Source: Spirochaetia bacterium (GTDB lineage Bacteria > Spirochaetota > Spirochaetia > DSM-2461). Taken from it: a DNA stretch of 64,000 bases. Made by a program: the position numbers and the translations under genes. Location: assembly GCA_963668315.1 (NCBI GenBank), contig OY764216.1:4224001-4288000 (forward strand), written 5' to 3'. Below the pieces are notes generated by a model. The model searched no databases, was not told where the DNA came from, and was given only the letters and a program-made list of their open reading frames with translations. Below are positions 25,710 to 63,294 of this stretch, in pieces (positions within the stretch are counted from its first letter, which is position 1; the number at the start of each line of letters is the position of its first letter).

Positions 25710-26918
25710 TCAACTCTTCATGGCGAGGGGCTCGTAGTCCACCTCTTCTTCCCGGGAAATTTTTTTTTCCACTTTTTTCACGAGCTTCCCGTAGTGATGG
25801 GCCAGAAGAGCGAAGACAGTGGGAATGGTGCTCAGAAGAATTTTGATGTCGTTTATCAGGGAAAGATGGCGGGCATATTTAATATCCAGACGAACCATCT
25901 CCTTAAAAGTCAAATCATTCTTACCGCTTACCTGCCACAGTCCGGTCATTCCGGGAACCGTATCAAACCGGTGAGTATGCCAGCGAAGATACTCTTCCGC
26001 CTCATAGGGAATACAGGGACGGGGTCCGACAAGACTCATATCCCCTTTGAGTACATTCAGCAGCTGGGGAAGCTCATCGATACAGCTGTTGCGGAGAAAA
26101 CCGCCTCCCCTGATAATACGGGGATCGTTGGCATCGTCAAGCTTGATCATGGGCACGTTGCCGTCTTTGATAAAACTCTGGGCATGCTTCCCGTGGAGAG
26201 CTTCATTGTTGCTGCAGTGCATACTGCGGAACTTGTAGAATTTAAAGGTTTTTCCCTTATGCCCCACTCTGTCCTGGACAAAGAAAACCGGGCCGGGAGA
26301 AACGATTTTAATATAAAGAGCCGTCAGAATCAGAAGGGGCGACAAGATGAGCAGAATGAGAGAGGAAGCCGTAATATCAAGAGTCCTCTTCCAAAGAGGA
26401 ATCTTTCGAGCCACCCTCTCCCCTACTTCGTTAAACTGCTTATCCTTCTTCCAGGGCGTATAATCCAGATCCCCGTTGTCATACTTATGATTGAACCAGT
26501 TCGTCGGATAGGTATGGCATACCGTCGGATAATTGATGCCGGTATCCTTGAGCTGTCTCTTGATGCGGAATTCAATGCCTTCCGCCTCTTCGCTGTCTGT
26601 CAGAGGCATAATGACGGCTATGGACCGGGAACCGTACCAGCCGATATGATCAATAGATCTGAGATTGGGCTTTATAAGCTGAGTGATCATCCGAAGTTCC
26701 ACTTCATCCCGAATGGACCGGTTTCCTTCAAATATCAATAATGAAAAAGCCTCTCCCGTACGGTCGGAACGAATCCTCTCGTACTGAAGAAGTTCAAGAA
26801 AATCCTTATAAGGAATGATATGACGGAGATCGTCACTGCTATTATATTTTGCCTTATCCTTTACGATAGGATTAAACGTATTCAAATTACTCACGGAGCC
26901 TATCCTTCCTTCACACAA
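25710..26918 (-). CDS. Priming sugar transferase (Bac_transf, WcaJ/WbaP-type C-terminus) with N-terminal degenerate GGDEF-like domain
   Basis: KRTLDI, SPGPVFFVQDRVG, FYKFRSM, DPRI, DELPQLLNVLKGDMSLVGPRP, PGMTGLWQVSG; N-terminus ERIRSDRTGEAFSLL...LRSIDHIGWYGSRSIAVIMP. Confidence 0.9.
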   Translation of the reverse strand: MCEGRIGSVSNLNTFNPIVKDKAKYNSSDDLRHIIPYKDFLELLQYERIRSDRTGEAFSLLIFEGNRSIRDEVELRMITQLIKPNLRSIDHIGWYGSRSIAVIMPLTDSEEAEGIEFRIKRQLKDTGINYPTVCHTYPTNWFNHKYDNGDLDYTPWKKDKQFNEVGERVARKIPLWKRTLDITASSLILLILSPLLILTALYIKIVSPGPVFFVQDRVGHKGKTFKFYKFRSMHCSNNEALHGKHAQSFIKDGNVPMIKLDDANDPRIIRGGGFLRNSCIDELPQLLNVLKGDMSLVGPRPCIPYEAEEYLRWHTHRFDTVPGMTGLWQVSGKNDLTFKEMVRLDIKYARHLSLINDIKILLSTIPTVFALLAHHYGKLVKKVEKKISREEEVDYEPLAMKS

Positions 26919-27098: not shown

Positions 27099-27776
27099 AT
27101 GAGATTATTATCTTTACCTATCCGATGCCTTAAAACAGCCATGACTCTTTTTTTGACTGTCGGATATATAATGTCCTGTACAACGAAAAACCCGGTACAG
27201 CCGGTAAAGGAGCCCGCTCCCATACGCTATGATAATCTCTTTTCCTACAAAGGAATATCCTTTTCCTACATTCCCCTTGACACGTCGTTTCTAGAAGATT
27301 TACACGGATTGGACAGTCGTTATTTTACTCAATCATCGGGACTTTTCCCACCCCGCCTACCCTGTGTAATTTCATTTAAAGCGACCGTACCCGATCATAC
27401 GGAACTTGTCTTGAAATACAGCGAGTCCTATCTGCAGGATGAAGTGGGTAACCGATTTTATTCACAGACAAGAAATGGATATTATGATCTGTGGAAAGAG
27501 AAAACACCTGCTTCTCTCCAATCAAAATTGAGCTGGCTTCTTGACCATAATCTCTATAAAGAGGTGCAATCCATTGCACCCGGACAGGAAAGGGAGGGCT
27601 ATTTTGTGTTTTTGATGAACCGTCCCAGAAGGGGAGATTTTACCCTCAACATCCCCTTGAAAATAGATAACGAGGAAGGCAGACTCACCCTTCCTCTGAC
27701 CTTGAACATCGACCGTTTAGAACCGGAAAATGGGGCGGAACCGGAAGGTCCGGCTTTTATTCCACAAATAGACTGA
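27099..27776 (+). CDS. Hypothetical lipoprotein
   Basis: Hydrophobic stretch ending IMSC (lipobox-like); start uncertain. Confidence 0.6.
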   Translation: MRLLSLPIRCLKTAMTLFLTVGYIMSCTTKNPVQPVKEPAPIRYDNLFSYKGISFSYIPLDTSFLEDLHGLDSRYFTQSSGLFPPRLPCVISFKATVPDHTELVLKYSESYLQDEVGNRFYSQTRNGYYDLWKEKTPASLQSKLSWLLDHNLYKEVQSIAPGQEREGYFVFLMNRPRRGDFTLNIPLKIDNEEGRLTLPLTLNIDRLEPENGAEPEGPAFIPQID

Positions 27777-27783
27777 GGTAATT

Positions 27784-29484
27784 ATGAAAAAAATCCTGAC
27801 AGCAGCGTTTCTCATCCTGTTCCTTTCCCTATTAACCGGCCAGACATCCGGCACCGATGAGAACCTGACGCCTGAGCAGAAGTACCTGCGGACCCGTCTG
27901 AATCCCCAGGGAACGGGAGCGGGAATTTCCATGGAGTATTCCGTTACGGGAAGCGCCCGTCTGGATTACGGAACCCAGTTTGACGACGGTGCTGATGATT
28001 TCGCCCAGGGATTCGAAACCACCATCGATTCCTCCCTGGACATCAGTTTTACCTTCCGCCCGGACAGCTTTACAGCCAGTCCCCGCCAATCCTACTTAAG
28101 AAGGGGACTCTATGCCGAGATTATCCTGACCGACTTCGGGGTGGTGATTTCCAACGATGCGGGTATCAATTTTTGGGATAATTATGAGATCATCGACAAC
28201 GAGGGCAACGTCTATGTTCCCAGCCAGTCCGCCGATACCAGAACGGTTCTGGACAATGCCGATGAGGAGGACGAGCTGACCTATGACTCCACCATGCTCT
28301 ATACGGGCGTGCAGGTGACGGCACCGACGGTGGAGGCGAATATCCACCTGAATCCGAATGTCTACTTTCAGATAGCCAGCCAGCCCGAACTGGACCATAA
28401 CCTTTCCACCACCCTGGGCGGCCAGGGGGAATGGGCCGGTGCGGAAACGGAAAATTCCGGCGGTCTGAGTTTCATCCTCGACTACCCTCTCTTCAACCTC
28501 AAAGCCTCAGTCGTGTCCCAGCACTACTACGACTACTCCAGCACCACCGACTCAACCCGCCAGAATGATGAATTCGGGGGAACCCTCACCGCGTCCTACG
28601 AGATACGCGACAATCTCCTTTTTCAGGGATACGGCGGCTACATCAACTTCTATACCGCTTCCAACGACGACGATTTCTATTTTGCCACGGGACGAACAGG
28701 CTCCACGGCGGATGCCATGGCCCTGGGAGGAGCCAGCCTGACCTATAATCTTTTCGAGCTGGCCGAGTTCGGTATTTACGGGGATTTTGCTTATGTCTCC
28801 GGCGGTAAATACAACAGAGGAACGGCTACAACTGACAGTGATGGAGATGGATACTATGAAGATGGAACTTATGTAGACATAAACGGCTTTCTTTACGATG
28901 TCCGAATGGACCTGCCCTTGCCTTTCGCCTTTGACAGGGGTCTCTTCACCTTTTCTGTGGATACCTATAATTACTCCTATCGGGATCAAATTTTCACCGA
29001 TGATGAGAAAAATACTGAGTTCCCCCTGGATCTGCAGCTGGGTTTCACCTATATGGAGGAACGATGGCAGGTTCAGAGCGCCATACAGGCCTTCAATATA
29101 CTGGATGCCACGAACAGTTATGAAAATTACCTCCTCGATGATCATCAGGAACTGGCTTTCCTCTTTTCGGGACAATATACCTTCGGGAATCCCTCCCGTC
29201 TGGCAGTCACCCCCGGTCTGGATATGATCGTCTCCCTGGGAAGGCTGATGACAGAAGGATGGTACTATTCAGCAATCGGTGATACGGGGACTTACATTGA
29301 TGACTGGAAGGACGATTACCTAAGCCTGGAAGCCTCGGTGGCCCTGGAGTTTCCCCAGACGGTGATTACTATCAGCTACGCTTCCCTGCAGCTGCTGCCG
29401 GGACAGGGAAATTCTCCGGAAGGAAGCGATTATACGGGAATCGATACGGGGGTGATGACGGTGTCCACGGTGATTAGTTACTGA
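27784..29484 (+). CDS. Outer-membrane beta-barrel protein, Msp/MOSP-like
   Basis: Signal peptide; SVTGSARLDYG...GFET and YAEI segments reminiscent of spirochaete major outer sheath protein; alternating aromatic beta-strands; C-terminal aromatic residue (VISY). Confidence 0.55.
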   Translation: MKKILTAAFLILFLSLLTGQTSGTDENLTPEQKYLRTRLNPQGTGAGISMEYSVTGSARLDYGTQFDDGADDFAQGFETTIDSSLDISFTFRPDSFTASPRQSYLRRGLYAEIILTDFGVVISNDAGINFWDNYEIIDNEGNVYVPSQSADTRTVLDNADEEDELTYDSTMLYTGVQVTAPTVEANIHLNPNVYFQIASQPELDHNLSTTLGGQGEWAGAETENSGGLSFILDYPLFNLKASVVSQHYYDYSSTTDSTRQNDEFGGTLTASYEIRDNLLFQGYGGYINFYTASNDDDFYFATGRTGSTADAMALGGASLTYNLFELAEFGIYGDFAYVSGGKYNRGTATTDSDGDGYYEDGTYVDINGFLYDVRMDLPLPFAFDRGLFTFSVDTYNYSYRDQIFTDDEKNTEFPLDLQLGFTYMEERWQVQSAIQAFNILDATNSYENYLLDDHQELAFLFSGQYTFGNPSRLAVTPGLDMIVSLGRLMTEGWYYSAIGDTGTYIDDWKDDYLSLEASVALEFPQTVITISYASLQLLPGQGNSPEGSDYTGIDTGVMTVSTVISY

Positions 29485-29498
29485 CGGAAGCCCTTCGG

Positions 29499-31457
29499 CT
29501 AAAGAGACTCTCTCCACACCTGATAGGCTGTCAGATCCCAGACATCCATCAGTTTGGTATCGTCCTTATCCTCCATATAGGCCCTGCGTATCCTCTCTAC
29601 TTCATCCAGATTCAGAAAGGGATCATCTCTTCTTATTGATCTGAGCTTCCGGTCGATCATTTCAGAGCAGTAATTTCTGTATCTGTCGTAAGCCTGAAAA
29701 CTGAGATCTCCCTTGCCTCCCCTCAATCGTATTTTGTCCGGAAGGATTCCTTCCATTGCTCTACGGAAATGCTGCCTGGTCATCCCTTCCTTCAGCTTAT
29801 ATTCGGATGGAACGGATAGGGCGAATTCGGCTAATTCACGGGAAAAAAACGGATGGCGCAGTTCTATTCCGCAAAAAGAAGCGACTCTCTCGGCGTACTC
29901 AAGAATATAAGCATTACCCGATAATGCCATATCAATATAATGGAGTCGGTTATCGGCGGCAGGATATTTTCCTATTGTCGATTGAGATCTAAGATACCTC
30001 AGACGTTCCTCTAAATGATAGGTTTTCACCACAGACGACTTAAGAAGGGAATCATCAAAGGTAAGTTTATCCGGTTTTATCGCGAGAATAGAACGGAGTA
30101 ATTTTTTCCTGGAAACATTTGTCACCCTGTGGATTTCGTTGAAATTTTTATACAAGCCCATGAGGCGCCCCTTGCGAAGCATATACTGAAGATAGGGTAA
30201 GGCGTACTTATCAAAGGAGGCAGCCCTGGAATAGAAGGGGATATCACGCCCGAAACTGGTTGAAACACCGGACGCTTCCGAAAAAAAAGTTCCCCACTCC
30301 CCAGACTGAGCCAATTGCACGAAGCGGTCATACCCATGGGACATGATCCCGTCGCCGTCCTCCCCGTCGAGAAAAACACATATCCCCTGCTTTCTCGCCT
30401 CCCGGTACAAACCAATCTGCAGATCGTTATTACCCCCCAGATAGGGTCCTTCATGGAGCCAGAGCATATCCTTGACATATTCCATGGGACTTATCCTGTC
30501 GGGATAAACATAATGGGGTGTGATATTACCTTCACGCAGTACATGCTGAATCCACTCCGTCTCATCAGATGAAGACTCAAAAAGACAGGAGAAAGAGTGG
30601 AGAGGCCCTAGACTGTGATCTTTATGGTAATCCCGTGCGGCGCATGTAACCGAAGAAGAATCAAGGCCTCCGCTTAAAGCTGTACCGACTCCTCCGGCAG
30701 CTCTCATTTTCGATGCTATACTCTTCGTGAAGAGTTCCCGAATTTTCTCGTAATAATCGCTTTCAGTTTTGCATTCAGGGGCATGCGCCGGTTCGATCTG
30801 CCAATATTTTTTTTTATCGATTGCCCCGTCGTTAACGGTAAGAGTATGAGCCGGAGGTAAGCGGTAAATTCCCTCATAAAAAGAGTTTGCCTGATCCTGA
30901 ACCACAATTTCCGGAACAAAATGATAAGAACAATACTCAAGATTCAATTTATTCTCAACCAAACCGGAAGCCAATATGGCCTTTGCTTCCGAAGCGAAGA
31001 GGAAAAAATCAGAGCTGTGATAATAAAAAAAGGGTTTGACCCCGAAGCGGTCCCGCCCGCAGAACAGTTTGACTCCGTCCCAGAGAGCAAAAGCAAAATC
31101 GCCGTCAATTTTCTGAAGGCAACTCTCTCCCCATTTTCTATAAGCTTCAATGAATAATTCGTGATCGGAAATATGGCGCAGCGGCTTCTGATCAAATCCG
31201 CATGCACGATACACTTCACTCCTGTTATCCAGCCTGCCGTCCAGCAACAGAATAAATTTGCCCTTGCAAAAAGGTCCCTTTATGTTCTTTTCCTCTTCGG
31301 TTACGGGAAAAGCCCCCCATCCCAAGAGGGCTGCTCCGGATTTTATGACTTTGGGAGCCTCTGTATATCTATGCATAATAGACTTCAGCATCAATTCAAC
31401 ATGAGATGTCCTGTCCGGAGAGGAGGAGAACTGGATCAGACCGGCAATGGCACTCAT
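29499..31457 (-). CDS. Lasso peptide cyclase (protein C, asparagine-synthetase-like)
   Basis: Starts MSAIAG (no catalytic Cys), DGRLDNR, RDRFGVKP, PP-loop LSGGLDSSSV, DGEDGD, ELRHPF; clustered with RRE, B2 and precursor. Confidence 0.9.
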   Translation of the reverse strand: MSAIAGLIQFSSSPDRTSHVELMLKSIMHRYTEAPKVIKSGAALLGWGAFPVTEEEKNIKGPFCKGKFILLLDGRLDNRSEVYRACGFDQKPLRHISDHELFIEAYRKWGESCLQKIDGDFAFALWDGVKLFCGRDRFGVKPFFYYHSSDFFLFASEAKAILASGLVENKLNLEYCSYHFVPEIVVQDQANSFYEGIYRLPPAHTLTVNDGAIDKKKYWQIEPAHAPECKTESDYYEKIRELFTKSIASKMRAAGGVGTALSGGLDSSSVTCAARDYHKDHSLGPLHSFSCLFESSSDETEWIQHVLREGNITPHYVYPDRISPMEYVKDMLWLHEGPYLGGNNDLQIGLYREARKQGICVFLDGEDGDGIMSHGYDRFVQLAQSGEWGTFFSEASGVSTSFGRDIPFYSRAASFDKYALPYLQYMLRKGRLMGLYKNFNEIHRVTNVSRKKLLRSILAIKPDKLTFDDSLLKSSVVKTYHLEERLRYLRSQSTIGKYPAADNRLHYIDMALSGNAYILEYAERVASFCGIELRHPFFSRELAEFALSVPSEYKLKEGMTRQHFRRAMEGILPDKIRLRGGKGDLSFQAYDRYRNYCSEMIDRKLRSIRRDDPFLNLDEVERIRRAYMEDKDDTKLMDVWDLTAYQVWRESL

Positions 31458-31462
31458 ACTAA

Positions 31463-32401
31463 TTACTCCGAGATAGCCTGATCTCTTAATTCGTTGACCA
31501 GCTCAAGAGACAAGGGCAGTTTTTCCAGGGAACGGGGTCGCACAAGCCGGTATACACGGCCGGTTCGAGCCAATGCGGCGCACTCGTCAAAAAGGCGCTG
31601 TTTCCCCAGCATGGGCAGTAATAAACCATTAAACATGGAACCGTACCAATGGGGCATAAGATAGAATAGGGCCTCTTTCTTATTAAGCGGCTCTATCCGA
31701 GGACTCTCGTCTTCTCCATAATCCAAAAAAATAACGGAATTCAATGGGAGAGGAGAATCGATATACAGATCCTCCAGAGAAACGATTCTTTTATCATAAT
31801 CCACATCCTTTCCTCCAATGGAAGGAAGACTGGATACATCATCGCTTATCTGCTTCGCCGCATCGGGCCAGAGCTTCATTCCGGGAAATCCCGGTTCAAC
31901 CCAGGAGCCATCCCTATGACGATCGACAGCCAGCAGATCATCACTAACAAGGGAGTAACCGTTTTGTATCATGAGAGTTGCCATGGTGGACTTACCGCCA
32001 CCCTTACTGGCGACGAAAGCGACAGCCCCTTTACCATCATGTTTGCCCACAACACTGGAATGATAGACAAAATGGCTCTGTCGCTGAAACATGAGAAGTC
32101 CCAGAACGGGACCGAGAAAGACAGAATTGATCAAGCCCCAGCGGGCCGGTTCCGTTGCAGGCTGGTAAGTAACCGTTGTCCCATCCTCTATGAGGAAAAC
32201 ACCGATTTCTCTCCAGTACATAAACATCCCGGAAGGGACCTTCATCATGACCCTTAACCGGGATTGATCCACTTCCTCCGGAATCGTAACAACTCCTCTC
32301 TTGAAGTAGACATCGTAATTCTCAACAGGAACAATCGGGGTAAAGGGAATCACTTCCACATCTGAACAGACAGTCATCCCGAAGGTCTTGTAGTAATACA
32401 C
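31463..32401 (-). CDS. HPr-kinase-like lasso peptide kinase
   Basis: YHSSVV, Walker A ASKGGGKST, LVSDD, PGMKLWPD; directly downstream of the precursor. Confidence 0.85.
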   Translation of the reverse strand: MYYYKTFGMTVCSDVEVIPFTPIVPVENYDVYFKRGVVTIPEEVDQSRLRVMMKVPSGMFMYWREIGVFLIEDGTTVTYQPATEPARWGLINSVFLGPVLGLLMFQRQSHFVYHSSVVGKHDGKGAVAFVASKGGGKSTMATLMIQNGYSLVSDDLLAVDRHRDGSWVEPGFPGMKLWPDAAKQISDDVSSLPSIGGKDVDYDKRIVSLEDLYIDSPLPLNSVIFLDYGEDESPRIEPLNKKEALFYLMPHWYGSMFNGLLLPMLGKQRLFDECAALARTGRVYRLVRPRSLEKLPLSLELVNELRDQAISE

Positions 32402-32461: not shown

Positions 32462-32632
32462 TTACGATGCGGAATAATCTTTGTTATCGGCAAAGGGATG
32501 AGTGGTGGGATCGTCATCAAAAATGAGATCAACTCTCCACCAGTCATGCCAACCCAGTTTACCGACACCTTTTGTCAAATCCATTACCTCGCCAAGATCA
32601 GTCATCTCGGGAGCGTTGTACACTTTTTTCAT
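32462..32632 (-). CDS. Lasso peptide precursor (56 aa): MKKVYNAPEMTDLGEVMDLTK / GVGKLGWHDWWRVDLIFDDDPTTHPFADNKDYSAS
   Basis: Hand translation (below ORF-track cutoff); AGGAGG RBS; leader YxxP motif, G...T(-2); core Gly1, Asp9; C-terminal Ser. Confidence 0.92.
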   Translation of the reverse strand: MKKVYNAPEMTDLGEVMDLTKGVGKLGWHDWWRVDLIFDDDPTTHPFADNKDYSAS

Positions 32633-32714: not shown

Positions 32715-32867
32715 CACTTACAACACGTTTTCTTCATATTCCACATATTTCTTCCTAATTTATCAACATTTTCTAATTGTCAAATCGATACCGATATAAT
32801 ATACGCCTTTTATCATGATAATAATGACTCGTTTACATTTTCCTGTGTCTATTATAAAATGATTCCA

Positions 32868-34118
32868 ATGAATAAAAACTGGTCCCGGCTGACAAGGGAA
32901 GAAGAGCTGCTTCTCGCGCTTCTGAATGATGATGACGAAAAAACGGGACAACTCATGGACTCCCATCCCTCCTTGAATTACATGCGATTCTTTGATTTAC
33001 TGACTCTTCATAGAATCAGTCCTTTAATAATGGCAAAATTACTCAAGAACTCCCCTCGTATCCCTTTGCCGGCGGAGTACCTTAAAATCGCCAAACTTGA
33101 TATTCTACGAAACAGCGCGTTTAGAAAACTTCGATTACGGGAACTGCTGAAAGTAGTATCGTTATTGAACAAGCACAATTTTGACATTACCCTGATGAAG
33201 GGTTTTTCCTATGACCCTGATGATCTTTTCTTGCGTTATTTCACTGATATAGACTTGCTGATTGATGAAGATAAGATCCTAGAAGCAATAACAGTATTAA
33301 CTGGAAACGGCTACAATTACAAAGGCAGTTTTATTCTTTCCGAAAAGGAGAAACTTGATATTAATGGGCAGCTGATCTGGAATAATCAATATCAATTTAC
33401 AAGCCCCGGAACACAACTGACAATAGAAATCCATACCAATCTATTTGAAAGAGACAGGATACGCTATGAGAACCTTGAAGTACTCCTGAATCACCCCGAG
33501 ATTTTCAAGAACAACAGAACATGGAGTGACAAGTTAAGCTGCTTTGTTCCCTGTACGGAAGCCTGTCTTCTTCTTTTATGCCTCCACGGTTCGCTTAAAC
33601 GTTCCCTGGCCAATGATTCCTTTATCCTGCGCCATATAACCGACATGGACATACTCTTTTCCCGGGGGATAGATAGCAGCTATTTCATCAGCTTAGTTCA
33701 GAATACTCAGACAGCTTATCACCAGGCCTTTGCCCTTAATCTCTACGAAAGGATAAAAAAAATAGACAGGATGGCTTTGACAGAATCGATAATGGCACTC
33801 CTCTCTGCCAAAGAACTTCGCCTTATGAAATACCACCTATCCTGTATGAAAAACCTATACCACAGCAGCCGTTTTTATCGGTATGTATATCATCTGACAG
33901 CCCCTTTTATCATCGGGGCCCGGGGAAAAAAACGTATTCTCTGGATTCTCTCGGCATTTTTTAATTCGAAGGTACAGCAGGAACAACGCTACATGAAATA
34001 CGGAATCACGAAGGAATCACCCTTAATTTATCTAACCTATCTCATTAACCCCTTTCAGTCGACCTGGCAATTTTTCAAAAAAACAGGAAGAATGATAGGA
34101 AAAACACATCAGCGGTAA
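32868..34118 (+). CDS. Nucleotidyltransferase (NTP_transf_5 type, lasso-cluster associated)
   Basis: LMKG...RYFTDIDLLI...IEIH signature; TTTACA-N17-TAAAAT upstream suggests start at ATG 32868 (ORF track gives 32859). Confidence 0.8.
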   Translation: MNKNWSRLTREEELLLALLNDDDEKTGQLMDSHPSLNYMRFFDLLTLHRISPLIMAKLLKNSPRIPLPAEYLKIAKLDILRNSAFRKLRLRELLKVVSLLNKHNFDITLMKGFSYDPDDLFLRYFTDIDLLIDEDKILEAITVLTGNGYNYKGSFILSEKEKLDINGQLIWNNQYQFTSPGTQLTIEIHTNLFERDRIRYENLEVLLNHPEIFKNNRTWSDKLSCFVPCTEACLLLLCLHGSLKRSLANDSFILRHITDMDILFSRGIDSSYFISLVQNTQTAYHQAFALNLYERIKKIDRMALTESIMALLSAKELRLMKYHLSCMKNLYHSSRFYRYVYHLTAPFIIGARGKKRILWILSAFFNSKVQQEQRYMKYGITKESPLIYLTYLINPFQSTWQFFKKTGRMIGKTHQR

Positions 34119-35908
34119 TTTTCCGCCTGCAGATTAAAAAGTTCGAAGTAAAGGCCTTTCTTTTCCATAAGCTCATCATGGGTGCCTTCCTCGACGATAC
34201 GCCCCTTATCCATGACACAGATACGGTCGGCCATGCGTACCGTAGCCATTCTATGACTGATCAGCAAAGCCGTTTTTCTGGTAACCATAGATCTAAACCG
34301 GGAGAAAACTTCCAACTCTGCTTTCGGGTCCAGGGAGCTGGTTGGCTCGTCAAGCACGATAATCCCTGAATCTTTATAAAAGGCCCTTGCCATGGCCACT
34401 TTCTGCCATTGCCCCCCGGAAAGCTCTTTACCATGTTCGAATAAAACCCCGAGAAGGGTGTCGTATCCCTCATCGAGGTGTTCAACAAGATCTTCGGCCC
34501 CTGCCAGATTAACAGCTTCTTCCAACCTTTTCCTATCAAGGGGACTATTCCAGTCGCCTATATGGATATTTTCTCTCAGTGTCAGATTATATTTAACAAA
34601 ATCCTGGAAAATAACGCCCACATTTTCACGCAGATCCTGCAAATTCAACAACCGGATATCGTTTCCGTCAATTTTGATTGCACCGTCGTTGACTTCATAA
34701 AGCCTGCATAAAAGCTTGACAAGAGTCGTTTTACCGCAACCGTTCAGCCCCACAAGAGCTACGACCTCCCCTTCTCCTATCTCCAGGGAAAGATTATCCA
34801 GAACCTTGTTCTGCGATCGGGGATAGGTAAAGGAAACGTTCTCAAAAACAATCCCTCCGCTTAAGGGACACTTCAACGTCACTGGAATCTCCGGAGAAAC
34901 GATCTGAGGCTCATCATTAAGAAATTCGAATAAATTCCTTAAGAAGAGATTATGACTGTACAAGGAAGTCATTCCATTCAACGCACCTCTCAGAAACCCC
35001 TGTCCTCTCTGGAAAGCCTGATAGAACATGACGAAATCACCCACTGACACCTGGCCTTTCACCACGTCCTTTCCGACCCAGATATAGGCAGAAAACACCA
35101 GAATCACCATAAAAGTATTGCTTATAATCGTATAGAGAGTCCGCCTTGCATCAAGCGCATTTCTGATATTACGCAGTTCCTCCCTGCCCTTGTAAAAACG
35201 TTCCATAATGGTTCTGCCCAGGTGGAAAAGCCTTACTTCCTTGGCGTAATCCCTTTCCAGCATCATAAACTGATAATAAAATGAGCGGCGTTCCTTAACC
35301 GTACACTCCCTCTCCCTCCGATACTCCTTGGAAGAGAAGAAAAGACGATTCACCAGACCGGGCAGGGATGCCAGGAAGAGAACAAGTATAATGAGAGGAT
35401 TAAACCGCGCAATGATCCACAGGACTCCGGCCAGGGAAATGGCATTCTGCAGAATACCGGCCAGGGAGTTGACAATCATACGGGGACGGCTGGCCGCCTG
35501 CTCCTGGGCCCTCTGAAGAGAATCGAGTTTCTTCGAATCTTCGAAAAACTGATAATCAAGGGTTTCCGATTTCTCCAGCAGCATTCCTGTCATGTAATCG
35601 GTCACCCGCCTCCCCTGCTCACGGCTGATCCATTGGGCAAGGGCTCCTGCGATATGAGAACCAAGAGTAACTAAACCGGTTAATACGATGACGATAAGGA
35701 TACGGGAATAATTACCCTCTCCTCCAGCCGCCTGGGCGACGGCATCAACCATCCTTTTTAACAGGAAGAGAAGAAGCACGGGAAACACACCGTTTACCAG
35801 CTGCAGTAAAAAGTTCAATACCAGCCAGAGGGGTGAACTATCCCAGACGAATCGAAGGGAAGTCAATATTCCCGATAGGATCTCCCGTATTTTTTTGCTC
35901 ATTTTCAT
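34109..35908 (-). CDS. ABC exporter, fused permease-ATPase (lasso protein D)
   Basis: N-terminal TM domain; GLNGCGKTT, LSGGQWQK, VLDEPT, ISHR. Confidence 0.9.
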   Translation of the reverse strand: MKMSKKIREILSGILTSLRFVWDSSPLWLVLNFLLQLVNGVFPVLLLFLLKRMVDAVAQAAGGEGNYSRILIVIVLTGLVTLGSHIAGALAQWISREQGRRVTDYMTGMLLEKSETLDYQFFEDSKKLDSLQRAQEQAASRPRMIVNSLAGILQNAISLAGVLWIIARFNPLIILVLFLASLPGLVNRLFFSSKEYRRERECTVKERRSFYYQFMMLERDYAKEVRLFHLGRTIMERFYKGREELRNIRNALDARRTLYTIISNTFMVILVFSAYIWVGKDVVKGQVSVGDFVMFYQAFQRGQGFLRGALNGMTSLYSHNLFLRNLFEFLNDEPQIVSPEIPVTLKCPLSGGIVFENVSFTYPRSQNKVLDNLSLEIGEGEVVALVGLNGCGKTTLVKLLCRLYEVNDGAIKIDGNDIRLLNLQDLRENVGVIFQDFVKYNLTLRENIHIGDWNSPLDRKRLEEAVNLAGAEDLVEHLDEGYDTLLGVLFEHGKELSGGQWQKVAMARAFYKDSGIIVLDEPTSSLDPKAELEVFSRFRSMVTRKTALLISHRMATVRMADRICVMDKGRIVEEGTHDELMEKKGLYFELFNLQAENYR

Positions 35909-35931: not shown

Positions 35932-36390
35932 CTATAGAAATTTCCCATCAAATGCTTCGAAAACTGCGAATTTATCCAGTCCGTAAAGCTCCCCCAGAAG
36001 CACTTTCCCGTCTTTTTCCAGCCAGGCATGAGCTTCGACAGGATATCCGGGGCGACGCCTTCGCGCTCCTATTTTAAGAGTGACATCCCACCCGCACCGG
36101 CGGAGAAGAATGAATCCGGCCAATGCCCTGGGAAGGCATTTAAGGAGACCGGGAAACGCAATTCCCGTGGATTCAATCAGCCAGGCCAGTCTTTCAGGAT
36201 CGGACAACGTCCGGAGCTCTACCCGCGGACTTTGCTTTTTGACCCAGGCAAGTACCTTGGGAAAAGAAGTAACGGTCATAAGGATGCGTATTTTGAAAAG
36301 GAGAAAGACAGCCTGTCGAAAGAGTTTCCGCTCTCCCCTCTCCATGGAAAAGACAGTTATTATTCTCTTAAGCTTCCTGTTCAAGGACAC
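35932..36390 (-). CDS. Lasso peptide leader protease B2 (transglutaminase-like)
   Basis: KCLPRALA...LLRRCG...LKIGAR...EAHAWLE Cys-His motifs; likely start GTG 36390 or TTG 36384, overlapping the B1 stop. Confidence 0.9.
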   Translation of the reverse strand: MSLNRKLKRIITVFSMERGERKLFRQAVFLLFKIRILMTVTSFPKVLAWVKKQSPRVELRTLSDPERLAWLIESTGIAFPGLLKCLPRALAGFILLRRCGWDVTLKIGARRRRPGYPVEAHAWLEKDGKVLLGELYGLDKFAVFEAFDGKFL

Positions 36391-36646
36391 CCTGACTGAC
36401 CATCTGCTGAATAATTTTTTCAAGATCTCTGCGGCAAAGGTCCTCTTCCACATCATACTCCTGCATGATAAGAGAGACTAAATCCTCCAGAGAAGCACTT
36501 CCCTTCTCAAGTTTCTGCCAGACAAGACTTCCCGTATCGTTCAGAGAGAAATATTTACCTTCCTGAACATGCATCAGTACGGATTCGCCGTCCATTTCTG
36601 TTGATATGACATCACTGGCAATTGTAAACGTGTCGGATAGTTTCAT
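36368..36646 (-). CDS. PqqD-family RiPP recognition element (lasso protein B1)
   Basis: MDGESVLMHVQEGKYFSLNDTGSLVWQKL...EYDVEEDLCRRDL; start 36646 or 36658. Confidence 0.92.
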   Translation of the reverse strand: MKLSDTFTIASDVISTEMDGESVLMHVQEGKYFSLNDTGSLVWQKLEKGSASLEDLVSLIMQEYDVEEDLCRRDLEKIIQQMVSQGVLEQEA

Positions 36647-36860
36647 GTGGTTGATCATACTTGTTACCTTACTTGCGGGTCAAGCTGATTTACTATAGAA
36701 AGGCATATTATCAACTTGGAGGATTGTTATTTATGGAATAATTTTTATTTTTATTTCTGGAAAGTATAATTCACACATTCTTCAATTTTGCCCCATCATC
36801 CCTTCATATCACAAGAGTTAGGACTGTTTTTTTTGTTTAATGTTGTATATTCTTAGGCAT

Positions 36861-61994: not shown

Positions 61995-63294
61995 GATAGT
62001 GTACAATAGTGTCTGTAAATTAGAAATAAAGGGGGCTTGAAAAAGTTAGCCAATCAGTCTTCGATTAGTTCGACGAAAAACAAAAGAAGGCATCATGACT
62101 AACGAGGATTACTATAGCGTTTTCGATCAAATGATTGAAGACCTCCAGGCAGAGAATAGAGAAGGATTAACAAAAGTCATAAGTTCAATAATGAATTTAT
62201 CTATGCGGTTAGAGCAGGAGAAGGCAATTCAAGCCAGTCATTATGAACGGAACGATGATCGTATTGGGCATAGGAATGGGTACAAGAGCAGAAAGATCCG
62301 GACTCGAGTCGGCGAAATTCCCATCGAGATCCCACAGGTCCGTGGGATGGAATTCTATCCTGGCAGCATTGAAAAGGGGTGCCGCAGCGAAAGAGCCCTG
62401 AAAATGGCCATAGCTCAGATGTACATCCAAGGCGTATCAACTCGCAGAGTGACCAAAATAGTAGAACAGCTCTGCGGCTTCGAAGTTTCCCAATCGCAGG
62501 TTTCAGAAGCGGCAGCTCTCCTTGATGAAGAGATCACCAAATGGCGTAATCGTCCTCTGGGAGCTTTTCCTTATCTTGTCGTTGACGCCACTTATGAGAA
62601 GGCTCGAGTGAATAGAACTGTTGTTTCTGCAGCCGTTCTAATTGCCTATGGTGTTGATAATAATGGGATGAGACGAGTATTGGGTATTTCTACAGAACTC
62701 AGTGAGGCCGATGTACACTGGAGAGGTTTTCTTTCCGGTCTGGTAGATCGGGGGCTCCATGGCGTGAAGATGATAACTTCCGATGCTCATAGCGGCCTGA
62801 GATCAGCAATAGAATCGGTTTTTCCAACAGTTCCCTGGCAGCGGTGCCAGTTCCATCTGCAACAGAATGCGGGACATCATGTGCCAAAGAAAAGTATGGA
62901 TAAAGAGGTCGCGGAGGATATAAGAACCATTTTTAACGCTCCCAATGGAGAGGAGGCTAACCGTTTTCTTTCTATGGCGGTGAAGAAGTATGAGAAAACT
63001 GCGCCAGAACTAAGCAGTTGGATGGATCAGAATGTTCCTGAAGCGCTCACGATCTTTAAAATGCCAAAGTCACATTGGAGAAGGTTAAGGACTTCAAATC
63101 TGGCAGAACGTCAGATGAGGGAAATTAAAAGAAGAACGAAGGTGGCTATGATATTTCCAAATAAGGAATCTGTCGATAGATTGGTTTCCGCTCTGTTAAT
63201 GGAAATAGATGAACAATGGTTCACAGGTAAGCGGTATTTAAATATGGAGACTGATTAACTTTTTTGATTTTACAGACAAAGGGGTTGCTCTATC
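61995..63294 (+). mobile_element. IS256-family insertion sequence (1300 bp)
   Basis: Imperfect IRs GATAG...TGTCTGTAAA / TTTACAGACA...CTATC; flanked by CGCCGAGA and TGCCGAGA (GCCGAGA identical). Confidence 0.9.
62095..63258 (+). CDS. IS256-family (Mutator) DDE transposase
   Basis: RNGYKSR, TRVGEI, MYIQGVSTRRV, YLVVDATY, TSDAHSGL, WQRCQFH, LRTSNLAER. Confidence 0.95.
   Translation: MTNEDYYSVFDQMIEDLQAENREGLTKVISSIMNLSMRLEQEKAIQASHYERNDDRIGHRNGYKSRKIRTRVGEIPIEIPQVRGMEFYPGSIEKGCRSERALKMAIAQMYIQGVSTRRVTKIVEQLCGFEVSQSQVSEAAALLDEEITKWRNRPLGAFPYLVVDATYEKARVNRTVVSAAVLIAYGVDNNGMRRVLGISTELSEADVHWRGFLSGLVDRGLHGVKMITSDAHSGLRSAIESVFPTVPWQRCQFHLQQNAGHHVPKKSMDKEVAEDIRTIFNAPNGEEANRFLSMAVKKYEKTAPELSSWMDQNVPEALTIFKMPKSHWRRLRTSNLAERQMREIKRRTKVAMIFPNKESVDRLVSALLMEIDEQWFTGKRYLNMETD

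What the first reader, a model, noticed from the sequence alone, without database searches (positions are those of the whole stretch)
32462..32632. Unannotated lasso peptide precursor with an unusually long (35-aa), Trp-rich and acidic core ending in Ser
Seen: a 56-codon minus-strand ORF with an AGGAGG RBS, absent from the ORF track, lying directly upstream of the kinase and cyclase. Leader MKKVYNAPEMTDLGEVMDLTK; core GVGKLGWHDWWRVDLIFDDDPTTHPFADNKDYSAS. Established: lasso leaders carry YxxP (RRE binding) and Thr at -2, and the ring forms between residue 1 and Asp/Glu 7-9. Here Asp9 is the only acceptor in range, giving a Gly1-Asp9 ring. Most cores are about 15-26 aa, and pandonodin, a notably long one, is 33 aa. 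Inference: a class II (no Cys) lasso peptide with a 26-residue loop/tail, a W7/W10/W11 aromatic cluster and a DDD patch. I do not recognise it as a described compound.
Basis: partly seen in the sequence, partly recalled or inferred. Interest (0 to 1): 0.9.

Follow-up and report, generated by a model that had tools for sequence, protein, structure and literature searches.

The report
Long-tailed spirochaete phospho-lasso peptide precursor
This small conserved gene sits in a complete seven-gene lasso-peptide cluster of a known kinase-bearing type and likely yields a knotted, tail-phosphorylated 35-residue peptide, a little longer than any solved lasso, but a close relative is already catalogued and predicted peptides this long are common.

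Summary
A 56-codon minus-strand ORF (32462-32632) with an AGGAGG site has a YxxP/Thr(-2) leader and a 35-residue core; Asp9 is the only ring acceptor and the last residue is Ser. It lies in a complete cluster: RRE, B2 protease, cyclase, ABC exporter, HPr-type kinase and nucleotidyltransferase. These are the seven gene types of the pseudomycoidin and bsf clusters. Two orthologs (34- and 36-aa cores) keep Gly1, Asp9, the DDD patch, THPFA and the terminal Ser, but not Trp10/Trp11. One is already labelled 'lasso peptide' in NCBI and listed in the LassoPred table. Length is less unusual than claimed: 500 of 4749 predicted cores are 35 aa or longer, though no solved lasso exceeds 33. In related spirochaete loci the ring acceptor tracks the cyclase: Asp9 in 3 of 3 loci with it, no acceptor in 4 of 4 precursors from loci where none is seen. 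The product is most likely a Gly1-Asp9 class II lasso, phosphorylated (perhaps hexosylated) on Ser35, with a short loop and an 18-22-residue tail. No expression or product data exist here. Verdict: a new member of a known kind.

The parts
32462..32632 (-). Precursor gene A: 21-aa leader plus 35-aa core
   Evidence: leader resembles NCBIfam lasso models below their cut-offs (lasso_leader_L3 18.9 of 19 bits; lasso_cyano 21.1 of 33); two orthologs at 70% and 62% identity
32638..32643 (-). Ribosome-binding site AGGAGG, 5 nt before the ATG
32570..32632 (-). Leader peptide codons (YxxP at 5-8, Gly15, Thr at -2)
   Evidence: 15 of 21 positions invariant in three precursors
32465..32569 (-). Core peptide codons, Gly1 to Ser35; predicted Gly1-Asp9 ring
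   Evidence: the cleavage site is inferred from the Thr(-2) rule
31463..32401 (-). HPr-kinase-like tailoring kinase (K), His114-Lys137-Asp154-Asp155
   Evidence: weak Pfam and NCBIfam hits below cut-off; motif positions; motif named in PMC9266682
29499..31457 (-). Lasso cyclase (C), 652 aa; SGGLDSS at 262-268; Ser, not Cys, at residue 2
   Evidence: NF033535 500 bits, cut-off 525; groups with precursor-linked cyclases and apart from the asparagine-synthetase-like rows, SH-aLRT 100; alignment
32859..34118 (+). NTP_transf_5 nucleotidyltransferase (N), Asp130-x-Asp132
   Evidence: PF14907 79 bits, cut-off 31; motif
34109..35908 (-). ABC exporter (D)
   Evidence: 63% identical to the G014 cluster exporter, 43-44% to cyanobacterial lasso-cluster exporters
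35932..36390 (-). Leader protease B2 (likely GTG start at 36390; the longest ORF starts at 36456), catalytic Cys and His present
   Evidence: NF033537 83.7 bits, cut-off 33
36368..36658 (-). RiPP recognition element B1 (PqqD family)
   Evidence: PF05402 74 bits; best solved relative TbiB1, E 1e-12

Best explanation
[quoted passage not shown] Shown here: the ORF, its conservation, and the presence of B1, B2, C, D, K and N with the catalytic motifs I checked intact. Inferred steps, by analogy with paeninodin, pseudomycoidin and bsf: (1) B1 binds the YxxP leader; (2) K (poly)phosphorylates Ser35 on the linear precursor (about 0.75); (3) N adds one or two hexoses on the phosphate (about 0.45); (4) B2 cuts after Lys(-1) and C joins the Gly1 amine to Asp9 (about 0.88); (5) the chain threads with a short loop, plugged near Leu15-Phe17, leaving a tail of about 18-22 residues (about 0.5); (6) D exports it. 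The cluster lies among surface-polysaccharide genes, so a role tied to the capsule or biofilm is more likely than antibiotic action. That role is a guess.
For: Full gene set. Same seven gene types as psm (PMC6993621, passages) and bsf (PMC10368454, passages). Three precursors keep G1, G3, G6, W7, D9, R12, D14, L15, D18-20, T23-A27, N29 and the terminal Ser while core length varies 34-36. The terminal Ser is the only invariant Ser and position 3 is Gly, which rules out the Ser3 site used by BsfK and LppK. Acceptor follows cyclase in Spirochaetia loci with a related kinase: Asp9 in 3 of 3 loci with a cyclase (G000, G014, G831), no Asp/Glu at 7-9 in 4 of 4 precursors from three loci where none is seen (G001 two, G919, G947). 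Cyclase tree. Of 19 solved lassos with a 9-residue ring, 18 have a loop of 4-8, which puts the upper plug at 13-17. Ortholog P0059 has Cys17 and Cys34, which would fit a tail-tail disulfide as in pandonodin. Polysaccharide genes flank the cluster, as reported for paeninodin-type clusters (PMC13381572).
Against: No transcript or peptide data. The cyclase scores just under the NF033535 cut-off (500 against 525) and the kinase is far under its family cut-offs. I did not align K or N with PadeK, PsmK, BsfK or PsmN. The longest tail among the 19 solved ring-9 lassos is 9 residues, so an 18-22-residue tail is outside precedent for that ring size. LassoPred's first choice for the ortholog is a plug at Phe26 (loop 17), with Phe16 second. 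Unmodified pseudomycoidin behaved as an unthreaded branched cycle. LppN made no detectable change in a heterologous host. The covariation count rests on six related loci, two of them on short contigs (G919 3.4 kb, G947 6.2 kb) whose genomes I did not search for a cyclase.
Confidence: 0.68

Rival explanations
1. Same lasso and same phosphorylation, but threaded with a large loop (about 17 residues) plugged at the invariant His24-Pro25-Phe26 and a short tail, as in ubonodin and achromonodin.
For: T23-H24-P25-F26-A27 is invariant in 3 of 3 cores, while position 16-17 varies (Ile-Phe against Phe-Cys). LassoPred ranks Phe26 first for the ortholog. Loops up to 20 are known.
Against: 18 of 19 solved ring-9 lassos have loops of 4-8, the largest 13. 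The residue after Phe26 is Ala, a poor lower plug (own knowledge of steric plugs). LassoPred's top-1 plug accuracy is about 63%.
Confidence: 0.25
2. The ring forms but the isolated peptide is a branched cycle, or stays threaded only when the bulky phospho-hexose cap is on Ser35.
For: Pseudomycoidin made without K and N was unthreaded (PMC6993621 section 8); its authors propose the sugar cap as a lock.
Against: This core has several bulky residues after the ring (W10, W11, R12, F17, H24, F26, Y32) that could act as plugs.
Confidence: 0.15
3. The mature compound in the native host is shorter than 35 residues because the long tail is trimmed, so the length record applies only to the gene.
For: Tail truncation by carboxypeptidases is reported for lasso peptides (PMC13352647, passage).
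Against: The terminal Ser and the THPFA motif are invariant, which suggests the far tail is under selection; a phosphorylated terminus may also block trimming (inference).
Confidence: 0.15
4. The cyclase is decaying and the peptide is released as a linear phosphopeptide, as seems to have happened in two genomes of the same genus.
For: G001 and G003 carry K, D, N, B1 and B2, and no lasso cyclase was found in either genome with NF033535 (96% and 90% complete). Linear polyphosphorylated peptides are a described family (PMC13381572). B1 and B2 of the window are closer to those two (59-70%) than to G014 (40-47%).
Against: The window's cyclase is full length with no stop, has the ATP-binding motif intact, is 49% identical to the G014 cyclase over 646 positions and sits directly behind A and K; Asp9 is kept.
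Confidence: 0.07

Closest known systems
Pseudomycoidin (psm) cluster of Bacillus pseudomycoides DSM 12442 (PMC6993621; passages and section 8 read)
   Same: Same seven gene types A, C, K, B1, B2, N, D; ring to residue 9; C-terminal Ser; kinase Asp-Asp (D154/D155 here, D158/D159 in PsmK) and transferase DxD (D130/D132 here, D134/D136 in PsmN).
   Different: Core 35 aa and about 4.0 kDa against 2.6 kDa; spirochaete host; different gene order with N on the opposite strand; cyclase groups with cyanobacterial and Chloroflexota cyclases among those I sampled (no Bacillota lasso cyclase was in the tree); YxxP leader, where paeninodin-type RREs favour WxxP.
Paeninodin family (PadeK, ThcoK, SyanK; seen through review PMC9266682 and LassoPred rows; the primary paper was not held)
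   Same: Class II, Asp9 ring, acidic patch after the ring, terminal Ser, HPr-type kinase with His-Lys-Asp-Asp.
   Different: Paeninodin-family cores shown were 22-26 aa (27 rows); the pade cluster lacks N.
bsf cluster of Bradymonas sediminis FA350 (PMC10368454; passages read)
   Same: Gram-negative host, same seven gene types, YxxPxL-type leader.
   Different: BsfK phosphorylates Ser3 in the ring and the leader has Ile(-2); here position 3 is Gly and -2 is Thr.
LassoPred database entry, supplementary file 3 row 1037 (PMC12214591), identical to P0058, the G014 precursor
   Same: 62% identical precursor, 34-aa core, ring 9, Spirochaetota.
   Different: Prediction only, no compound; one Cys in the core; the window's own core is not in that table.
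Pandonodin (33 aa, class IV) and achromonodin-1 (30 aa, class II) (PMC13352647 and bioRxiv 2023.06.21.545946; passages read)
   Same: The longest characterised lasso peptides; pandonodin has the short-loop, long-tail shape that I favour here.
   Different: No sequence likeness found (PDB profile search); 8-residue rings; pandonodin has a tail disulfide, which the window's core cannot form.
Linear polyphosphorylated peptides, LPP (PMC13381572; sections 6, 7 and 12 read)
   Same: Shares RRE, HprK kinase, NTP transferase, MsbA-like exporter, YxxP leader and location in polysaccharide loci.
   Different: LPP clusters lack the cyclase and use a signal-peptidase-like protease; the window has a cyclase and B2. 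The cyclase-less sister cluster in G001 resembles LPP but has B2.

Membership tests
Lasso peptides | Precursor with YxxP leader motif and Thr at -2 | tested here: met
Lasso peptides | Asp or Glu at core position 7-9 with a small first residue | tested here: met
   Gly1, Asp9, invariant in 3 of 3 cores
Lasso peptides | Adjacent RRE and transglutaminase-like leader protease | tested here: met
   PF05402 and NF033537 above cut-off; Cys and His present
Lasso peptides | Adjacent asparagine-synthetase-like macrolactam cyclase | tested here: met
   NF033535 500 bits, slightly under the 525 cut-off, but it groups with precursor-linked cyclases and lacks Cys2
Lasso peptides | Product is cyclised and threaded | not testable with these tools
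   needs expression, MS/MS, protease and NMR work
Class II lasso peptides | No disulfide bond | tested here: met
   no Cys in the core; orthologs have one and two Cys
Paeninodin/pseudomycoidin-type phosphorylated lassos | HPr-type kinase with His-Lys-Asp-Asp in the cluster | tested here: met
   H114, K137, D154, D155; family scores are below cut-off
Paeninodin/pseudomycoidin-type phosphorylated lassos | Conserved C-terminal Ser | tested here: met
   3 of 3 precursors
Paeninodin/pseudomycoidin-type phosphorylated lassos | Phosphate (and hexose) actually installed on that Ser | not testable with these tools
   needs mass spectrometry
Paeninodin family in the strict sense | Bacillota host, Trp-type leader, 22-26-aa core | tested here: not met
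   spirochaete host, Tyr-type leader, 35-aa core; no paeninodin-named model among the three NCBIfam hits; family traits
Paeninodin family in the strict sense | Kinase or RRE falls in the PadeK/PadeB1 clade | not tested
   reference sequences were not fetched
Linear polyphosphorylated peptides (LPP) | No macrolactam cyclase; signal-peptidase-like leader protease; Ser3 phosphorylation site | tested here: not met
   cyclase and B2 present, position 3 is Gly

The most novel reading that the evidence does not exclude
This small spirochaete family makes the longest threaded lasso peptides yet isolated (34-36 aa, 9-residue ring, tail of 18 or more), capped by a phospho-sugar drawn from the neighbouring polysaccharide pathway. 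Its three members span no, one and two Cys (class II to a possible class IV), and sister clusters in the same genus have lost both cyclase and ring acceptor, a lasso-to-linear transition that keeps B2 as the protease.
Probability: 0.3. Interest if true: 0.58.

Novelty: new member of a known kind. Interest (0 to 1): 0.33.

Why it matters
If made at full length it would pass pandonodin (33 aa) and achromonodin-1 (30 aa, the longest class II named in the papers read) and give a cyclase that threads a long acidic tail through a 9-residue ring, which is useful for grafting sequences onto lasso scaffolds. My one search for lasso peptides with spirochaetes listed 17 of 19 papers, none with a title on a characterised spirochaete lasso (listing only), so it may be a first compound from the phylum. 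The cluster is also a second test bed for the poorly understood N enzyme. The gain is incremental: the chemistry and gene set are described and a close ortholog is catalogued.

Tried and rejected
Expression: no RNA holder was listed; this says nothing for or against transcription. Promoter and terminator scans were at chance level (15 against 10.9 +/- 3.6; 10 against 7.4 +/- 2.8), and the A-K gap folds no better than shuffles (z +1.0), so no regulatory element is claimed. A single-sequence homolog search found only the query. The two-sequence profile found 3 weak hits (E about 0.009) in 400 phylum genomes, all inside long ORFs and taken as chance; in the 50%-representative library it gave a 2289-aa repeat protein (chance), one 55-aa lasso-like precursor P0009 and a 268-aa protein with repeated leader-like motifs. 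The best PDB hit, an okadaic-acid-binding protein (E 0.007), is taken as chance. The Atlas gave unnamed clusters only. A mosaic origin (A, K, C, D closer to G014; B1, B2, N closer to the same-genus clusters by identity) was not resolved by trees of D, B1 and B2, and the N tree pointed the other way, so it is not claimed. A Trp-cluster function was rejected because W10 and W11 are not conserved. One identity (N of G001) used the wrong strand and was redone. The primary papers on paeninodin, RODEO and pandonodin were not held, so those facts come from reviews. Phrase searches for 'largest/longest lasso' and 'cyanobacterial lasso' returned 0 papers. MIBiG could not be searched. No structure or complex prediction was run: these programs do not model the isopeptide knot, and RRE-leader is a textbook pair.

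Full report
Observation. The minus strand at 32462-32632 encodes a 56-aa peptide exactly as reported, with AGGAGG five bases before the ATG. Splitting after Thr-Lys gives a 21-aa leader and a 35-aa core with Trp7, His8, Asp9, no Cys and Ser35. A leader-plus-acceptor pattern matched 3 of 22,548 small reading frames in the 5.6-Mb genome; the genome has one B2 gene, and only this ORF is near it. Three runs of one sample carry the whole cluster without a differing letter, but they may be its source.

The cluster. Family scans give B1 (36368-36658), B2 (35932-36390), an ABC exporter (34109-35908), a nucleotidyltransferase on the opposite strand (32859-34118), the precursor, an HPr-type kinase (31463-32401) and a cyclase (29499-31457). 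B2 is well above its cut-off and has its Cys and His. The cyclase scores 500 bits against a cut-off of 525. It has SGGLDSS at 262-268 and Ser in place of Cys2. In a 29-row tree it groups with 17 cyclases of relatives, cyanobacteria and Chloroflexota, most of them beside a precursor-like ORF, and apart from 11 asparagine-synthetase-like proteins (SH-aLRT 100, quick method). The kinase has His114, Lys137, Asp154 and Asp155, the motif named for lasso kinases in a review (PMC9266682, passages). The transferase has Asp130-x-Asp132. The cluster is flanked by a priming sugar transferase on one side and by a PKS, two NRPS genes, three GT2 enzymes, a WecG enzyme and an MBOAT on the other.

Relatives. 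One of 60 related genomes has a close cyclase (G014, 49%). It carries all seven genes in another order and a precursor with a 34-aa core. A profile of the two found a third precursor, P0059, with a 36-aa core. All three keep Gly1, Gly3, Gly6, Trp7, Asp9, Arg12, Asp14, Leu15, Asp18-20, Thr23-Ala27, Asn29 and the last Ser. Trp10 and Trp11 are not kept. The cores have none, one and two Cys; P0059 has Cys17 and Cys34. Over the first 50 codons window and G014 share 24 identical codons, 9 synonymous and 17 non-synonymous changes. The G014 precursor is named 'lasso peptide [Spirochaetaceae bacterium]' in NCBI, which places the window in the Spirochaetota, since G014 is of the same family. The system is rare there: B2 in 3 of 37 other family genomes and 2 of 400 phylum genomes; the kinase in 12 of 400 class genomes.

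A natural control for the ring. Among Spirochaetia loci with a related kinase, three have a cyclase (G000, G014, G831) and all three precursors have Asp9. Three show no cyclase (G001, G919, G947) and their four precursors have no Asp or Glu at 7-9. For G001 the whole genome was searched and only the Cys2-type asparagine synthetase was found; G919 and G947 are short contigs and were not searched further. G003 has kinase, exporter, transferase, B1 and B2, no cyclase was found, and its precursor lies off the contig. One more distant locus (G977, 1.7 kb) has a precursor with Asp7 and Asp9 and too little DNA to judge; it is left out of the count. The loci are related, so this is a pattern and not a statistic.

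How unusual is the length? Solved lassos run from 14 to 33 aa (PMC12214591, passages). A 2026 review names achromonodin-1 (class II, 30 aa, loop 20) and pandonodin (class IV, 33 aa, tail 18) as record holders (PMC13352647, passages). A full-length product would exceed both. Among predictions it is ordinary: 500 of 4749 LassoPred cores are 35 aa or longer (supplementary file 7). In 301 cyanobacterial genomes, 12 had this cyclase family. Beside the nine loci with a full-length match I found 14 precursor-like ORFs, 10 with cores of 35 or more (24-58 aa); the five loci with a partial match add 7 cores, 1 of them that long. Those cleavage sites come from a pattern and are unverified. The G014 precursor is row 1037 of the LassoPred table; the window's core is in neither the seven supplementary files nor the paper library. 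The G831 relative has a 20-aa core, so among the Spirochaetia lasso loci seen the long core belongs to this trio.

How unusual is the composition? Of 27 paeninodin-family rows shown (74 matches in all), 26 have a 9-residue ring, 26 end in Ser, and most have an acidic run after the ring; they are 22-26 aa long. The window's core reads as a stretched version of that plan.

Mechanism. Shown: genes, motifs, conservation. Inferred from PadeK, PsmK and PsmN: the kinase phosphorylates Ser35 on the precursor and the transferase may add hexose to the phosphate. BsfK and LppK use Ser3 instead, but position 3 here is an invariant Gly. B2 would cut after Lys(-1) and the cyclase would close Gly1 to Asp9. 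For threading, 18 of 19 solved ring-9 lassos have loops of 4-8, which puts the plug at Leu15-Phe17 and leaves 18-22 tail residues; the Cys17/Cys34 pair of P0059 would then be a tail disulfide as in pandonodin. Against this, the longest ring-9 tail solved is 9, LassoPred prefers Phe26 for the ortholog, and unmodified pseudomycoidin was not threaded. The role is unknown for the whole group; paeninodin and pseudomycoidin showed no antibacterial activity and such clusters often sit in capsule loci, as this one does.

Verdict. A real lasso precursor in a pseudomycoidin-type cluster. It is a new member of a known kind, with a modest length record if made whole. The cyclase-less sister clusters are the more curious by-product. 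Earlier notes of this scan report similar long cores and a ring-less spirochaete system elsewhere; they are unchecked and were not used as support. Supplements of the psm, bsf and LPP papers and of LassoESM (listed) were not read and could hold this sequence or its relatives.

Noticed in passing
L055 9222-16275 (G001:C35, same genus): Cluster beside the same PKS/NRPS genes with two precursors (43- and 32-aa cores, no Asp/Glu at 7-9), two kinases, exporter, a 291-aa ORF with no Pfam hit, transferase, B1 and B2, but no lasso cyclase in the locus or found in the genome. Likely a linear phosphopeptide system that uses B2, unlike the described LPP family.
   Followed up: partly
L056 1-4020 (G003:C354, same genus): Kinase runs straight into the exporter, then transferase, B1, B2; no cyclase found in the genome (90% complete, 370 contigs); precursor lies off the contig.
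   Followed up: partly
L095 (G919:C235) and L096 (G947:C167): Two more spirochaete loci with RRE, precursor, kinase and exporter, no cyclase within the short contigs and no ring acceptor in the precursors (21- and 36-aa cores).
   Followed up: partly
P0059 (JGI protein, longest contig 7777 bases): Ortholog with a 36-aa core and two Cys (17 and 34): a possible class IV member of the same family.
   Followed up: partly
window 36840-59307: Acyltransferase, single-module PKS (KS-AT-ACP-TE), asparagine-synthetase-like gene, two NRPS genes, GT2, WecG, MBOAT and hexapeptide transferases: looks like a polysaccharide-decorating PKS/NRPS locus, partly conserved in G001 (PKS 50%, synthetase 82%).
   Followed up: no
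window 27099-29484: A 225-aa lipoprotein-like ORF and a 566-aa ORF with a signal peptide and terminal Tyr, both without Pfam or NCBIfam hits; relatives flank the cluster in G003 (566-aa protein 79% identical) and G001. Probably an outer-membrane pair.
   Followed up: no
L064-L067 (cyanobacteria): Cyclase-like genes that match only the first 420 model positions; the precursor-like ORFs beside them lack Asp/Glu at 7-9 under my cleavage rule.
   Followed up: no
L057-L062, L068 (cyanobacteria): Lasso-type precursors with 32-58-aa cores, several with two Cys near the end and a shared Gly-Ser-x-Asp/Asn motif; none found characterised in my searches.
   Followed up: no
L083 8947-15172 (G048) and L085 4946-9972 (G169): B2, transferase and RRE genes (with kinase and exporter in G048) without a cyclase or a recognisable precursor.
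   Followed up: partly
P0010: A 268-aa protein made of about five repeats, each with a lasso-leader-like motif: possibly a multi-core precursor.
   Followed up: no
window 25710-26918: Priming sugar transferase with a weak GGDEF-like N-terminal part.
   Followed up: no
window 62095-63258: Mutator-family transposase.
   Followed up: no
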